Position numbers and translations under genes: made by a program. This document shows positions 24,053-31,200 of a stretch of 64,000 nt of DNA, one piece after another. The notes under the pieces are model-generated. The model did not search any database and was not told the origin of the DNA. It saw nothing but the letters and a program-made list of their open reading frames with translations. Origin of the DNA: the human T2T-CHM13v2.0 reference genome, Homo sapiens; assembly GCF_009914755.1 (NCBI RefSeq), contig NC_060935.1. The stretch is one strand, 5' to 3'. Position 1 is the stretch's first letter. The number at the start of each line of letters is the position of its first letter.

Positions 24053-25305
24053 GCCTTGTTTTAAAATATATACTTGACTGTCCTATTTCTCATATACAAT
24101 TCTAGAATAAATTCTGACAAAATGAAATAAAGAGTGCCTGGAGTTTATTTAGCTATTGCTAACTCCCATTTTGGGTCCCATACTGAAAGAGAAACAGAAA
24201 TGTCTTAAAAGCTCCAAACTCTGCCAGGGTGAAAGGCATTCTTAACTCAAATTTAATAAGAAGAAAATGCTAAAATTTTTCTTGAATCAGTTCAGCCTAA
24301 GTCAATATAATGTAATTAATAAGTGCTCTCCAATGACAGAGTTCTCTGTCTGCCCCAGAAGAGGGACAATGAGTGGAGCACAAAGGGAGACAAGATAAGC
24401 CCTCAAGAAGTTTTTCTGATGAACACACAGTAAGTATGGGTTTCTAACCTACAAAAAACTAACTTTTTGCAGATGATAGCAGAATTCTGCTTCCTTTTAT
24501 TCATGGGGCAGGTTGATATGGGCTATGAAAGAAGAATAAAGAACTGATTAGCTTATACACGTTCAAAATGTATAATCGTATTTTGCTTTTCATCAATCCT
24601 ATTTGAGAATGACATTGGGTGGCAGATGGGGGGTTACTACTTTGTTTCCCCATCAGGCCTGGGACATCCATACGCTTAAATTCCACATCATGATCCTCTC
24701 ATAATAACTTCGTTAACATCTCCTTATTCTCTTTTGTAATTTTCCTTGCCTCATCCCTGGCTTTCTAGTGTGGTGAACTCCTTACAGAAAGCATTGATTA
24801 CATGGTAACATTGGGGAGTCCACTGAGCTAGGCCTGATCTGGCTGTGCCACTCTCTTGCTGACTGTCATACTACCTGAGACTCAATTTTCTCCTCCCTCG
24901 GAGGGAAGAGACTGTTAGGCTATATGAATCTAAAGCCCCCTTAAAGTATAAAATTCCAGATCTATTCTTGAGTTATTCTTGCTAGATATAGTCATTTCAG
25001 AGACTGTCTAGGCTATTGATGAGTTAGAAGTATGAATCTGCTGGCCAGAAGAGACAGGAAAGGTAATTAGATCCAGGCTACTGCCTACAGGAGGCTGAAT
25101 TGCACAAACTTCACATGCCAAATAATTTATTCTCTTGTCAAACAGTTAAGGTTTACTTTTTATAAAAGAATAAAATGTGATCATGGCAAATAAATTCTGT
25201 TTCAGAAAGGTCTAAAAGGAAGAGGTAAAAGTCCCCTCACCATCTCCATTTCCAGTGGAACCACTTTTATGGATACTTTTTTCTTTTAGGATCATCTAAT
25301 ATTTC

Positions 25306-25311
25306 TTTAAT
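25306..25311 (-). terminator. ATTAAA polyadenylation signal of the SOCS6 retrocopy
   Basis: Plus-strand tttaat, 18 nt from the start of the T-rich poly(A) remnant. Confidence 0.75.
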
Positions 25312-25952
25312 CATAATTCTAGTTCCATAGGTTTTCATGTTATGGCAATTTGTACCTGAGTTTAATGACAGAAAAGGCAACAATTTCTAAATTGGTGGTA
25401 AACATTTCTTTACAATTTTTTAATGTAAGGCCATTTATTATAATAGGCAAACTATAAGATGAAAATGAAGGCAACAGATGAAACGAAGGCAACGGAAAAG
25501 CTCAACTTCTCACAACCAATAAAATTAGCACAACCTAAGAAATAATTTAGAAAAAAGTGTTGTTAGAAGATATGTTGTAGATCTCCATTCCATTACCCAA
25601 GAGTATGCCAATTCATGATTCTAAATAAATCTTTTTAAAGTAATAGATTAAAAATTCATCTTCAGTGTATACGTAAATTCTGTGTTTTATCACACGGGTA
25701 TGTTTATTCAACACTATCTTTTGAAAATGGGCCATTTAAAAAGACATAGCAATTTCCATTCTGTTTAATGCATAAAAATCACAGTGGATAGCAGCAAAGG
25801 ACAGGGCGGGGCGGGAGGGGGGGCAGCATTGAGGAGAATTTGATAATTCACATTGTGATTATTCTGCACATTGAGGAAAGGTAATTCACACTTCTAAAAC
25901 CTCAAGACTTCCCTTTTTAAATAACCAAAATAAACCCAAGACACCTTGCTGA

Positions 25953-26267
<315 letters not shown>

Positions 26268-28083
26268 ACTGATGACTCTTTTATACATAAAAGTGAAATA
26301 GTTATGGCAGCAAAAGATTTTGATGGCAATGAAAGTTTGTAAACTGTGTTTCAATCTCTTTTTCTTATTCCCAAAGTGCAAGATGCAGGGTTCTCAGTCT
26401 TTCAGTAGTGCTTCTCCTGTAAATAATCCTTCATTTTGTTTGGCAAAGGCAGTTTCTGAATTAAGTCTATTCTGGTATACTGACATAAAACAAAATGACA
26501 CAGGTACTGCAACGAGTGTACCTGCATGAACCGAGACACTGGCTTGGCCAGTCTGACAAGGTAAGTTGCAGATCCAGGCAGCTGAGACCTTGAATAACAA
26601 AAAGTTCCATTTTCAGAGTCCCTGACTGAATGCTCAATTAGATCAACTATGGATGTATGCCCTTCCACATTTGGCTGTTCATAAAAGCTAAACCTACCAT
26701 TTGAGTGCCCAAGTCTAGTGTGAACTGTTTTACCATGGGAGCGAAAGCTCAAGCTTAAAAGGTAACAGTCTTCAGAACTGTCCCAATCAAGGAAAGAACC
26801 ATCTGGCAGGACTGCTAGCTTCCCTTCTGCCTCCCAACATGTGATTGGTCCCCAGTACCATCCTTGTTTTGCAAGATCTTTTTAGCTCCTCTGTAAGGCT
26901 TGTCACTACCATGGGACCACTACTTTGCACTGAGACATAAACTCTTGCAACACCAGGAGCAGAGTTAAAATCAAAATTCAAATGACAGAGCATACTTTCA
27001 GCCATGTGGGCTTCTGTGCCAGTAAGTCCACTGAAGTTCCTTTGGATTTGATTATTTTGCATTGGAGGTAGCAATGGTGAGAGTGGAGGGACATGATGCG
27101 GACCCACTCTGGGGCTCTGCAACATGACTCCCGTGGTGCCAGTCAACAACCCATTCATGGACTGATCCACAAAGATCTCTGGGGCAACAACTAGGTTCTG
27201 GTCTGCCTGACTCTCATCTTCGGGGAAAGAGCGCCCTCCCACTTGAGAAGGAACCACAGAGACTTCCATGGTAGAAGAACTGTCCAGACAATAGCTACTT
27301 GATCCTTCCAAAGGACACATCCCCTCATCTAAAGGCACAGTATACTGAATGTAGTCCTGAGGCAGAAGTCCAATAACGACAGGCACATGTTCATCCAGGC
27401 GAAGATACAGGTCTCCGTTCTGAGAAGCCGAGCTTTTCAGTGAATTGGCTTGTTCCTGGCACGCGGTCTCAGACTGAAGGTCGTGGAAATCCTTTCGGAC
27501 GCCATTCAGGGGTGGACTCGGACTGGAAGAGTGGCCTTGACTCTCACCTCCATCTTGATGCACGTCTCCTCAGAGTTTGTGGGTCGAAGAGGCCATGGCA
27601 TGGGACTGCAGTGATGGCTGCGGAGGGAGGTGGCCTTATCGGCCTCTGAGCTCTCACGGCTTTAAAGACTATCGGTGCTGAGGAGGAGGAGAAGGTGTCC
27701 TCATCGGCAGAGCTCCCAGAGGGTTTGCCCGCCTTGCCTTTTGGCTTCTGTTTGGCAGAAAGCTGCCTTTTTAACGTATCCATCAAGCTTTTGCTTTTTG
27801 ATCTGTCTTTTTTTTCTTTTCCACCTTTTTCGTCTTTCCTGTTGATATCGCAGTTGGCCATATCTTTACCATAGCAGCTACCAAATTAGGAATTATCTTT
27901 CCAAAGTCACTGGCTAGCGATGGTTGTTGTACTACCATGAAATCAGTTTATTTTTTACTTTTATTCAAGTTAAAGGATTTCCAGAAGGTTTTAAAACTGA
28001 TTTTCTTCATTATGACTAGTTACCTAATCCAACGGATGAAAATACTAGGGGATTCACTTCTGGCATGATGGAATGAGATGGTC

Positions 28084-28200
28084 AGCCGGGCGCGGTGGCT
28101 CACGCCTGTAATCCGAACACTTTGGGAGTTCGAGGTGGGCAGATCGCTTGAGCCCAGGAGCTCAAGACCAGCTTGGGCAACATAGGGAAGAGCCCGTCTC
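28084..28200 (+). mobile_element. FLAM_C/AluJ left-monomer fragment embedded in the SOCS6 retrocopy 5'UTR
   Basis: gccgggcgcggtggctcacgcctgtaatcc...gatcgcttgagcccaggag...gggcaacatag...cccgtctc, with no A-tail and no TSD. Confidence 0.9.
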
Positions 28201-31200
28201 CGAAGGTGGCCGGGCTACGCTTCCTCTCCCAGGACCGGCGTGACTGCTGCGCTCGCCTTTCCTCCAGCAAGTCCTTCTCCCGCCTCCTTCCTCCTCCTCC
28301 AGCTTGTGTGTACTTTTTAAAGATTCACTATATGCACATGCAAGCACATGACTTTATTTCTCTTGCTCTCCTTACATACATATTTTAATATATTATTGCC
28401 TTTTTATTTAACTGAATAGATCATAACATATATAATTTGACAGCTTTTGTTTTGCTTTTCATTGAGCAATGTATCTTGGACATCTTTCATTATCATATCA
28501 GCTCATATCATTCTACCTTTTTAATGAAAGCCCAGTATTCCATGTTATGGATGTGCCAGCACTTTTCAGTGAGATCCCTCTTGATGTTGTTAAGGTTGTT
28601 TCCAGTTTTTCTGCTGCTATGAACACTTATAAAAGTGTTTCTGAAGGATAAGTTCCCTGGAAAGACTTCTTGGTGAAAGGGTATATGCATTACTTGTTTT
28701 TTTTTAATTTGCTATTGCACATTTTCAAAATGATTATTTATTCATTAAACATATAGGAACTAATAAATAAGAAAACAAAAACAGGCCATAATCGAATTGC
28801 CCAGATAGTGTACTGATATGAAAAATAAAATTAATATACCCACATCATATCCATATATCATAAGTAAGGCACAATGAAAAGACATACAATTAAAAGGCTC
28901 CCTTACCTCCTATTATTCTCTACAAAGGTAATCATGTGAATGGTTTCTTGTATATACTACTAATTATTTTTGTTGTGAATATAAGCCACTTTATAAAATA
29001 TATAATTTAAAATTTTATACAAATAAGATCATGTTCTACACCTTGATTTTTTCCACTTACTAATATACCTTAGTCAGCTTTCTAATTTACATATTTCTTC
29101 CGATTAATCTCATTCTTTTTAATAGCTATGAGTGTTCTATTATTCAATGAAAAACAATTTGTTTTACCAGTGCATGGCTGATAGACAGCTAGGTAGCTTC
29201 ATTATTTTGTTATTATAAACAATGAGGTAATAAATATCATCTAACAGTAAGTTGTTGAGTAAAGGATATGAATGTCAAATTTTGATAGGTATCGCCAGAC
29301 TGCCTCTAAAAGTGTAGTATTAATTTATATGCCAACAAATAATATACGATTTTCAACTTCCTCACACTCTTGTAATAGTTACATATACCTCGACATTTGA
29401 CTTTTTCCATTCTGATAGGTAAACAATTTTATTTTTAAATTTTGTGTTTCTTCAATTATAAGGTTAAGCATCTTCTTATATGTTTATTGGATATTTGAAT
29501 TTATTTTTACATAAAATCCCTTTTTATTTATTTTGCTTTTTTTGTTGTTGTTGTTTAGGCAGTTTGCTCTTTCAAAAAATTATCTGCAAATGAAGAATGT
29601 TATTGTTCCTTCTTAGGTAACTATTACAAATATTCTTAGTTTGTTATTTGTACTGTTGTATTTTAACTTTTCTTTCGTACATTATTTCATATCATAGATA
29701 GAGTGAATTTTTAAACATTTAGTGAAGTCTTATTTAATTTCCTTTTCTTTTTTGGCTCTTAAGTTTTAGATTATATTTTCTCTTCACCAATCTATTTAAC
29801 AAATTACCCATGTTTTCCTGTAGCAAACTATAGTTTAATCTTTAGCCATTTAATCCTTAATCAATTGGAATATACTTTAATGTTTGATGTGAGAACCAAG
29901 TGAACAGCCACAATTTCTTGGACGTTTCCTTTACAGCATAAGATTTCTACATGTTTCATCATTCTAGTCATCCTCTGAATTTTTTTTCAGTGCATTAAGA
30001 AAACTGCATGGAAAAATGGGAAGGAACAAAGGATTTGCAGTTAGACAAAACGGGTTAAATCTCAAGTCTACCTAGGTTTCCTAGGTAACCTGGGGAAGTC
30101 ACTTAACTTCTTTGAACCTTAGCTTCCTTTTCTATAAAATGAGTATACCTACCTACCTACCTACCTATCAGGGCTGTTGCAGGTATAAACAGGCATTCAG
30201 CAAATAGTATCTATTATTATTGTTTTAGCATTTCTTCAAAGAGCTGTGATTATAAGTGATGAAATAAAATCTAATAGAAATTAACCAACACAGAGTGCAA
30301 TATATTAGTTACTTCATGCTTTTTTTAAAAAGAGGAACACAACATTTTAGGAGTAGAAGAGCCTTAGAAACTTGTTTGTCTAGCACTTATACATTAGAGA
30401 TGAACCCCGTAAAGGAAGGGACTGGCCCAAAGTCATACTGAAGTTAGCATAGGGATAGGACCAGCCAAGCGCTCCTCTTGCCAAGCCCAGAGTTCTTTCT
30501 AGTTTAGCAGATGTGCTCTAATATGTGAGTTTGTTTCTTTTTCACTGGACCAATAATAAAATCTTGTTCATTTTAGGCCCAAATCTACATGGGCCTCTGC
30601 ATTTTTGGAGAGGTTTGTTGCTGCTGTTATCCTGAAAAATATCATATTGCCCTTGTTCCTGTTGATTTCTTCCCTGGTTTTAGCAAACATGTTCTTCTCC
30701 AGTCTTTCAAACTTTTCAAGATCACTTTGATTCTTATTTCTATCCCTGAGGTTTCAGTTTTTATCAGTAAACCTTGAACAAATAACATTTTCAAGTATTC
30801 ACAGTTTACATCATTGATATGACACTTTAAAATACCAAGTGTGACACAGCCTCATATATTTACTATTGGTTTTTTTTTTGTTTTTTTTTTGCTTCAGTTT
30901 GAACTTTTTCACCTGGATGCATGGATTCTGAGAGTTCTATTTAGAGTCCTCTCCTCTCCAAGAAAAATTCTTTTCTTGAAGCATACATTCTCAAAGATTG
31001 GATGCCATTAATTATTGTTGAGATTAATAATAATAATTGTTAACATTAATTGAGCATCAGGTATGTACATCAGAGATAGTTATATATTATTTCATTTAAT
31101 CCTCAGGAGGGTGGGATTATTTTTCCCATTTTACTGATAAGAAAACTAGGCTCAGAGACTCACTGACTTACTCAAATTTATATGGTGGAAAGAGGCTAAG

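What the first reader, a model, noticed from the sequence alone, without database searches (positions are those of the whole stretch)
28011..28303. Retrocopy preserves a SOCS6 splice isoform containing an exonised antisense Alu/FLAM
Seen, in mRNA sense: a GC-rich leader (...gtagcccggccaccttcgG) joins directly to AGACGGGctctt..., an antisense Alu monomer lacking its poly-U tract and any TSD. It is followed by 73 nt and then the ATG. Known: ...tag|AGACGGG is a recognised 3' splice site in antisense Alu left arms. FLAM/AluJ elements are older than this well-preserved retrocopy, so a later insertion is unlikely. The monomer has also kept its CpGs, as expected near a CpG island. Inference: the retroposed mRNA was exon 1 + Alu exon + coding exon, recording an ancestral germline 5'UTR isoform of SOCS6.
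Basis: partly seen in the sequence, partly recalled or inferred. Interest (0 to 1): 0.72.

Follow-up and report, generated by a model that had tools for sequence, protein, structure and literature searches.

The report
SOCS6 retrocopy preserves an Alu-exon isoform
A dead, intron-less copy of the SOCS6 gene on chromosome 11 was made from a messenger RNA that carried an extra leader exon built from part of an Alu repeat, so it is a fossil of an old splice form; this is a tidy example of a known phenomenon.

Summary
On the minus strand, window 28300..25290 is a SOCS6 processed pseudogene. It maps to the parent locus on chr18 of the same assembly as three colinear blocks.

- **Exon 1:** window 28300..28200. 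The parent donor is G|gtaagc.
- **Alu exon:** a 155-nt exon, window 28199..28045. It is the antisense left arm of an Alu (116 nt) plus 39 nt of unique intron-1 sequence. The parent acceptor is a T-run followed by gcag|, and the parent donor is TAG|gtatat.
- **Coding exon:** from window 28044 onward.

A 33-nt piece of the unique tail occurs exactly twice in the genome: here and in SOCS6 intron 1. This rules out a later Alu insertion.

- The parental element is a full dimeric Alu, not a free monomer.
- It lies 21.4 kb from exon 1 and has itself lost most of its CpGs, so the CpG-island explanation fails.
- The last junction is fuzzy within about 4 nt.

I estimate the age at roughly 30-50 My, using mutation rates I recalled rather than looked up. 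Whether today's SOCS6 still makes this isoform, and whether it is already annotated, could not be tested here. Both underlying ideas are known: retrocopies as fossils of splice forms, and left-arm Alu exonization. This is a new member of a known kind, of moderate-to-low interest.

The parts
28301..28318 (-). Candidate 5' target-site duplication of the retrocopy (starts AAAAAGTA, preceded by TTT)
   Evidence: Read: 12 of the first 15 bases match the copy at about 25281..25267. Judged by eye and not tested against chance.
28200..28300 (-). SOCS6 exon-1-derived leader (last ~101 nt of exon 1)
   Evidence: matches C18:70504058-70504160 at 85% (E 5e-22). In the parent the block is followed by gtaagc.
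28084..28199 (-). Alu-derived part of the cassette exon: antisense left arm, starting at the splice junction
   Evidence: Metazoa_SRP hit on the + strand, 28085-28202. (Alu copies genome-wide match it). (aligns to the parental Alu at C18:70525555 onward).
28045..28083 (-). Unique (non-Alu) 3' part of the cassette exon; carries an upstream ATG at 28066
   Evidence: 33 nt of it occur only here and at C18:70525676-70525708, with 0 mismatches; the ATG opens a 16-codon uORF that ends at 28016. The parent follows this stretch with gtatat.
26268..28044 (-). Coding-exon-derived part: 34-nt leader, ATG at 28010, disabled SOCS6 reading frame, start of the 3'UTR
   Evidence: 92% identity to C18:70539699-70541473; stop after 20 codons; the frame is broken into pieces of 105, 258 and 116 aa.
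25983..26267 (-). Younger sense-oriented Alu inserted into the retrocopy's 3'UTR part, with its own A-tail and target-site duplication (GTCATCAGT on both sides)
   Evidence: sequence; Metazoa_SRP 58.7 bits; the parental alignment is interrupted here with a 15-nt overlap.
25290..25988 (-). Rest of the retrocopy's 3'UTR part. It ends 16 nt after an ATTAAA (25311..25306) and is followed by a short A-rich run
   Evidence: matches C18:70541459-70542178 at about 91%. Homology stops at GATGATC in both copies, and the parent has the same ATTAAA.
25264..25289 (-). Remnant A-rich tail and candidate 3' target-site duplication
   Evidence: read by eye. The tail is only about 12 nt and is interrupted.

Best explanation
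Window 28300..25290 (minus strand) is an L1-type processed pseudogene of SOCS6. It was copied from a mature mRNA with three exons.

- The first was exon 1.
- The second was a ~154-nt cassette exon lying 21.4 kb into intron 1. Its acceptor sits just after the internal T-run of an antisense dimeric, AluJ-like Alu. Its body is that Alu's left arm plus 39 nt of flanking intron. Its donor is a GT in the flank.
- The third was the coding exon, cleaved at a proximal ATTAAA poly(A) site.

The mRNA must have been present in the germ line or early embryo, roughly 30-50 My ago. The Alu stretch therefore did not insert into the retrocopy: it came in as part of the RNA.

**Shown:** the three colinear blocks, their GT/AG edges in the parent, the uniqueness of the tail, and the loss of both introns.

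**Inferred:** the date, the germ-line expression, and that the exon was a regular alternative 5'UTR exon. It adds an upstream ATG and a short uORF, and so may have lowered SOCS6 translation.
For: - **Colinearity:** the three blocks lie in order on the + strand of C18 at 70504058-70504160, 70525555-70525708 and 70539697-70542178.
- **Splice signals in the parent:** G|gtaagc after block 1; a T-run plus gcag| before block 2 and TAG|gtatat after it; ccag and atag within 4 nt of the start of block 3.
- **Unique tail:** the 33-nt tail is found in only 2 places in the genome, the retrocopy and SOCS6 intron 1, at 33/33 identity. The reversed-pattern control gave 0 hits.
- **Truncated Alu:** the parental Alu is complete, with a right arm and poly-T upstream, while the retrocopy holds only the part downstream of the acceptor.
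- **Same age as the rest:** non-CpG divergence is 13/135 = 9.6% in the Alu exon, where both copies evolve neutrally. It is 105/2278 = 4.6% in exon 2, where the parent is constrained. The ratio of 2.1 is what a single common date predicts.
- **Retrocopy hallmarks:** the copy ends 16 nt after an ATTAAA shared with the parent, followed by an A-rich run and a candidate target-site duplication. The ORF is dead.
- **Literature context:** left-arm antisense Alu exons are a recognised minority class, 77 against 313 right-arm cases, with the acceptor just after the internal poly-T (PMC2639721, passages read).
Against: - The junction between the Alu exon and the coding exon is not base-exact. After ...CCCCTAG the retrocopy reads 12 nt, of which only 8 match the parent. 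One base is missing if the atag| acceptor was used, so the acceptor is placed only to within about 4 nt.
- Today's parental donor, TAG|gtatat, looks weak (no G at +5). This is my reading of the motif; no splice-site score was computed.
- The poly(A) tail is short and the target-site duplication is decayed (12 of 15, by eye).
- One retrocopy samples a single RNA molecule, so it says nothing about how common the isoform was.
- No transcript annotation or RNA-seq for SOCS6 was available. Present-day use is untested.
- No other primate genome was available, so the date rests on mutation rates I recalled.
Confidence: 0.92

Rival explanations
1. The template RNA was a one-off product of cryptic splicing (noise). 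Under this reading the retrocopy does not record a regular SOCS6 5'UTR isoform.
For: - A retrocopy samples a single molecule.
- The parental donor TAG|gtatat looks weak (my reading).
- The exon is absent from one large Alu-exon catalogue. There was no 'SOCS6' in the three supplement files held, and no chr18:679xxxxx row in the 6,311-row list. The hg19 position of SOCS6 used for that look-up was recalled, not checked.
- The RefSeq pseudogene span starts at 28043, which suggests the reference mRNA used to define it lacks the Alu exon (hub annotation; inference).
Against: - The acceptor is strong-looking: about 20 T plus cag.
- Both junctions use canonical sites.
- Retrocopies come mostly from abundant germ-line transcripts (general knowledge).
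- Nothing here measures how often the exon was included.
Confidence: 0.3
2. The Alu inserted into the retrocopy after it had landed on chr11. In that case the 5'UTR of the source mRNA had no Alu.
For: Alu insertions into retrocopies do happen. One sits at 25983..26267 of this same retrocopy, with an A-tail and a target-site duplication.
Against: - The element at 28084..28199 has no A/T tail, no target-site duplication and no right arm.
- It starts exactly at the exon-1 junction.
- It is followed by 39 nt that are unique to SOCS6 intron 1.
- Its divergence from the parental Alu fits the age of the retrocopy.
Confidence: 0.01
3. The structure is a chimeric retrocopy made by reverse-transcriptase template switching from SOCS6 mRNA to an Alu RNA, or it is a DNA-level duplication of the SOCS6 locus.
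For: Template-switch chimeras between mRNAs and small RNAs exist (general knowledge).
Against: - The Alu is antisense and internal, with SOCS6 exon 1 on its 5' side.
- All three pieces lie in order in the one parental gene, and their edges fall at GT/AG.
- 21.4 kb and 14 kb of intron are missing, so this is not a DNA duplication.
Confidence: 0.01

Closest known systems
Processed pseudogenes as 'genomic fossils' of splice variants (Shemesh, Novik, Edelheit, Sorek, PNAS 2006)
   Same: A retrocopy keeps the exon structure of the mRNA it came from, and so can reveal alternative or ancient splice forms of the parent gene.
   Different: I saw this paper only as an entry in two reference lists. The paper itself is not held, so its content is recalled. 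I do not know whether SOCS6, or any Alu-exon case, is among its examples.
Left-arm exonization of antisense Alu elements (Schwartz et al. 2009, PMC2639721; Gal-Mark et al. 2008, PMC2330237)
   Same: The Alu is antisense in an intron. The acceptor AG lies just after the internal poly-T linker, and the exon body is the left arm. This is a minority class: 77 left-arm against 313 right-arm exons (passages).
   Different: Here the donor lies 39 nt beyond the Alu, in unique intron. The evidence is a genomic fossil rather than ESTs. For PMC2330237 I saw only the search listing and the start of the abstract.
Alu exons in 5'UTRs that change translation (Shen et al., PNAS 2011)
   Same: This is an Alu-derived cassette exon in a 5'UTR that brings in an upstream ATG and uORF.
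   Different: No effect on SOCS6 translation was tested. The paper is not held and was seen only in a reference list, so its content is recalled.
Gradual emergence of Alu exons in primates (Attig et al., eLife 2016, PMC5115870)
   Same: Antisense Alu exons with long U-tracts at the acceptor, dated across primates.
   Different: The SOCS6 exon is not in the supplementary lists held for that paper. The dating here comes from a retrocopy, not from species comparison.

Membership tests
L1-mediated processed pseudogene (retrocopy) | Introns of the parent removed at exon junctions | tested here: met
   Two introns (21.4 kb and 14 kb) are absent. Junction 1 is base-exact. Junction 2 is placed within about 4 nt.
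L1-mediated processed pseudogene (retrocopy) | 3' end at a poly(A) site, with an A-tail | tested here: inconclusive
   Homology ends 16 nt after an ATTAAA shared with the parent. Only a short, interrupted A-rich run (about 12 nt) is left.
L1-mediated processed pseudogene (retrocopy) | Flanking target-site duplication | tested here: inconclusive
   The candidate starts AAAAAGTA on both sides, with 12 of 15 bases matching by eye. No chance control was run.
L1-mediated processed pseudogene (retrocopy) | Disabled reading frame (pseudogene rather than retrogene) | tested here: met
   Stop after 20 codons. The frame is split into 105-, 258- and 116-aa pieces.
Antisense Alu exonization, left-arm class | Alu lies antisense to the host gene, in an intron | tested here: met
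   The parental Alu at C18:~70525343-70525670 reads antisense on the SOCS6 strand, inside intron 1.
Antisense Alu exonization, left-arm class | Acceptor AG after the internal poly-T, with the exon body in the left arm | tested here: met
   A run of about 20 T plus gcag| lies directly before the first exon base. This fits the window Schwartz et al. describe.
Antisense Alu exonization, left-arm class | GT/GC donor at the exon's end | tested here: met
   TAG|gtatat at C18:70525708/09. It lies outside the Alu.
Antisense Alu exonization, left-arm class | Exon found in mature mRNA and alternatively spliced | tested here: inconclusive
   Presence in at least one mature mRNA is shown by the retrocopy itself. 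Whether it was alternative, and whether it is used today, cannot be tested without transcript data.
   In the parent, a right arm and a poly-T lie directly upstream of the exonised left arm. The monomer look of the retrocopy is produced by splicing.

The most novel reading that the evidence does not exclude
The Alu cassette is not splicing noise. It is a long-lived, uORF-bearing regulatory 5'UTR exon of SOCS6 that has been spliced in the anthropoid germ line for about 40 My. In addition, the retrocopy's 5' end (exon 1 plus Alu exon) has stayed hypomethylated since insertion, for example as a small promoter-like island inside DLG2. That would explain why it kept all of its Alu CpGs while the rest of the copy lost about 60%.
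Probability: 0.1. Interest if true: 0.5.

Novelty: new member of a known kind. Interest (0 to 1): 0.33.

Why it matters
The retrocopy gives a minimum age for one Alu exonization, taken from a genomic fossil rather than from transcriptomes. It shows that an antisense Alu in SOCS6 intron 1 was already being spliced into mature germ-line mRNA tens of millions of years ago.

It also corrects the extent of the annotated pseudogene. The real span is about 25290..28300, not 26268..28043. Finally, it points to an untested upstream-ATG leader variant of SOCS6, a cytokine-signalling regulator.

It does not change how retrocopies or Alu exons are understood.

Tried and rejected
- **Later Alu insertion:** rejected, because the 33-nt non-Alu tail is unique to SOCS6 intron 1.
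- **Template switching or DNA duplication:** rejected on the block edges.
- **Shared private substitutions:** I tried to show that the retrocopy's Alu and the parental Alu share changes found nowhere else. I compared them with a majority rule over 22 other Alu copies. The 9 shared differences are mostly present in 5-41% of the other copies, so they look like subfamily traits and add little. The unique tail is the real proof.
- **CpG-island explanation:** rejected. The parental Alu is 21.4 kb from exon 1 and keeps 3 CpGs against the retrocopy's 8.
- **Literature:**
  - SOCS6 + Alu + exonization found 1 paper, which was irrelevant.
  - SOCS6 + 'Alu exon' found 0 papers.
  - The Attig 2016 supplements have no SOCS6 and no row in the recalled hg19 interval.
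  - Shemesh 2006 and Shen 2011 are not held.
- **chrX copy's upstream flank:** searched against the genome for a further SOCS6 exon. No chr18 hit was found. A local alignment to the end of exon 1 gave only a weak score (29, against a maximum of 27 in 200 shuffles).
Full report
**What is in the sequence**

Read on the minus strand, a GC-rich stretch begins at 28300 and ends ...ccaccttcgg at 28200. It is joined without any spacer to agacgggctctt... at 28199. The next 116 nt (to 28084) are the antisense image of an Alu left arm.
- Rfam's SRP/Alu-domain model matches 28085-28202 on the + strand (47.8 bits, E 2.9e-10, below the family's gathering score of 70).
- In a search of the window's own assembly, about 40 scored Alu copies match just this part at 84-89%.
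- There is no T-run, no right arm and no flanking direct repeat.

The SOCS6-like reading frame that follows stops after 20 codons and is broken into pieces in different frames. The locus is therefore a dead pseudogene, as RefSeq annotates it.

**Mapping to the parent gene**

The region falls into three blocks that lie in order on the + strand of contig C18 (chr18), where the SOCS6-coding match is 92% identical.

| Block | Window (minus strand) | Parent (C18) | Identity |
|---|---|---|---|
| 1, exon 1 | 28300..28200 | 70504058-70504160 | 85% |
| 2, Alu exon | 28199..28045 | 70525555-70525708 | 87.5-88% |
| 3, coding exon | 28044..25290 | about 70539697-70542178 | 92% |

Block 3 is interrupted at about 26267..25983 by a younger, sense-oriented Alu that has its own A-tail and its own target-site duplication. 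The introns removed are 21.4 kb and 14 kb.

**Block edges in the parent**

- Block 1 is followed by gtaagc.
- Block 2 is preceded by a run of about 20 T plus gcag, and is followed by gtatat.
- Block 3 begins within 4 nt of two AGs (ccag, atag).

The first junction is base-exact: parent ...CCGG plus AGACAGG..., retrocopy ...TCGG plus AGACGGG....

The second junction is fuzzy. After ...CCCCTAG the retrocopy has 12 nt before the shared TTGGATTAGG. Only 8 of these 12 match the parent, and one base is missing if atag| was the acceptor. I can place that acceptor only to within about 4 nt.

**Why this is not a later Alu insertion**

The exon is not all Alu. Its last 39 nt (28083..28045) are ordinary intron sequence. 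A 33-nt piece of that tail occurs exactly twice in the 3.1-Gb assembly: in the retrocopy and at C18:70525676-70525708, both with 0 mismatches. A reversed control pattern gave 0 hits. In one search the chr18 match is the only one of the 44 listed that extends beyond the Alu.

In the parent the Alu is complete. An antisense right arm headed by a poly-T lies directly upstream of the acceptor. The 'monomer without poly-U or target-site duplication' seen in the retrocopy is simply what splicing left of a dimeric Alu, so it is not a FLAM.

I call the element AluJ-like only from recalled diagnostic motifs. No repeat library was available to classify it.

**Same age as the rest of the retrocopy**

Non-CpG divergence between retrocopy and parent is 105/2278 = 4.6% in the coding exon and 3'UTR, where the parent is constrained and most change is on the pseudogene branch. 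It is 13/135 = 9.6% in the Alu exon, where both copies drift. The ratio of 2.1 is what is expected if the Alu exon left the parent at the same time as the rest.

The exon-1 block is more diverged (10/74), but the numbers are small.

With recalled neutral rates of 0.9-1.5e-9 per site per year, 4.6% gives about 32-53 My. That is around the split of New World and Old World anthropoids. This is an inference and could not be checked against other primates, because none were available here.

**Retrocopy hallmarks**

Homology to the parent stops at 25290, 16 nt after an ATTAAA that both copies share. The source mRNA therefore used a proximal poly(A) site about 0.7 kb into the 3'UTR.

What follows is a short, interrupted A-rich run and a candidate target-site duplication. 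It starts AAAAAGTA, and 12 of 15 bases match the sequence just upstream of 28300, which is preceded by TTT. I judged this by eye and did not test it against chance.

RefSeq's span for the pseudogene (26268..28043) is shorter than the real copy at both ends. It stops at the younger Alu on one side and at the coding-exon boundary on the other. The second point suggests that the reference mRNA used to define it lacks the Alu exon. That is an inference only.

**How it most likely came about**

- An AluJ-like element inserted antisense into SOCS6 intron 1.
- Its internal T-rich linker plus an AG served as an acceptor, and a GT 39 nt beyond the Alu served as a donor.
- A germ-line or early-embryo mRNA of structure exon 1 - Alu exon - coding exon, ending at the proximal ATTAAA site, was reverse-transcribed by L1 machinery. 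It inserted into a DLG2 intron in the same orientation as DLG2.
- The copy then decayed.

Left-arm antisense Alu exons are a recognised minority: 77 against 313 right-arm exons, with acceptors just after the internal poly-T (PMC2639721, passages read).

The exon brings an ATG (28066, also present in the parent) that opens a 16-codon uORF ending just before the main ATG. A second ATG, at 28183, is present in the retrocopy only. A damping effect on translation is a reasonable guess by analogy with other 5'UTR Alu exons. That analogy is recalled from Shen et al. 2011, a paper I could not read.

**What remains open**

- One retrocopy samples one RNA molecule, so the template could have been a rare mis-spliced product. 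I give that reading about 0.3.
- Today's donor, TAG|gtatat, looks weak by my reading; no score was computed.
- I found no mention of a SOCS6 Alu exon in print:
  - SOCS6 + Alu + exonization gave 1 irrelevant paper.
  - SOCS6 + 'Alu exon' gave 0 papers.
  - The exon is not in the supplementary Alu-exon lists held for Attig et al. 2016. The hg19 interval used in that look-up was recalled.
- No transcript annotation or RNA-seq for the SOCS6 locus could be consulted, so the exon may well be in GENCODE already.

**The CpG remark**

In detail: the retrocopy's Alu exon has 8 CpGs. The explanation is not supported. The parental Alu lies 21.4 kb from exon 1 and has only 3 CpGs left, all shared with the retrocopy. 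At the 5 other sites the parent reads CA or AG.

Elsewhere the retrocopy kept only 30 of 74 parental CpGs (7/13 in exon 1, 22/56 in the coding part, 1/5 in the 3'UTR). By that yardstick, keeping 7 of 7, or 7 of 9 on the most cautious count, is unusual, with P = 0.002 to 0.03. The stricter comparison, using parental CpG sites only (10/16 against 23/61), is not significant, at P = 0.09. I leave this as an unexplained side observation.

**Comparison with what is known, and verdict**

The idea that processed pseudogenes preserve old splice forms is established. I know Shemesh et al. 2006 only from reference lists and from recall, because the paper is not held. Alu exonization, including the left-arm class, is well described.

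This case is a clean, fully checkable instance of the two combined, and it gives a minimum age for one exonization. It is a new member of a known kind. Interest is about 0.33.

Noticed in passing
window 25241-25323 (minus strand): The DLG2 exon annotated for 'other transcripts' starts inside the 3' end of the SOCS6 retrocopy (its ATTAAA and A-rich tail) and runs through the candidate target-site duplication. It ends at a canonical donor, GATG|gtgagg, at 25241/25240. The bases before 25323 are GA, not AG, so it looks like an alternative first exon partly supplied by the retrocopy.
   Followed up: partly
L011/L012 (G000:C23:69959444-69964235, minus strand): There is an older SOCS6-derived copy on chrX, about 79-84% identical, with later insertions. 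Its homology starts at C18:70539606, directly after a strong T-rich acceptor (...ttttag). That is 92 nt upstream of the acceptor used by the chr11 copy, and the homology runs past the chr11 copy's poly(A) site. So two retrocopies record two different acceptors for the coding exon. Its upstream flank has no chr18 match and only a weak resemblance to the end of exon 1 (score 29, against a maximum of 27 in shuffles).
   Followed up: partly
window 28045-28300: The 5' end of the retrocopy kept its CpGs much better than the rest. The Alu exon has 8 CpGs against 3 in the parental intron copy, and exon 1 kept 7/13, while the coding part kept 22/56. CpG observed/expected falls from about 0.7 here to 0-0.25 further into the copy. 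The cause is unknown; persistent germ-line hypomethylation is one idea.
   Followed up: partly
window 25983-26267 and 26268/28043: A younger sense Alu, with an A-tail and GTCATCAGT on both sides, splits the retrocopy. The RefSeq pseudogene span (26268..28043) stops at that Alu on one side and at the coding-exon boundary on the other. It therefore misses about 700 nt of 3'UTR-derived sequence and the 256-nt leader.
   Followed up: yes
window 26018-26145: Sub-threshold Rfam hits to mir-1268 (48 bits; gathering score 83) and mir-3135 (37 bits; gathering score 80) lie inside the younger Alu. These are Alu-derived look-alikes, not evidence of miRNA genes.
   Followed up: no
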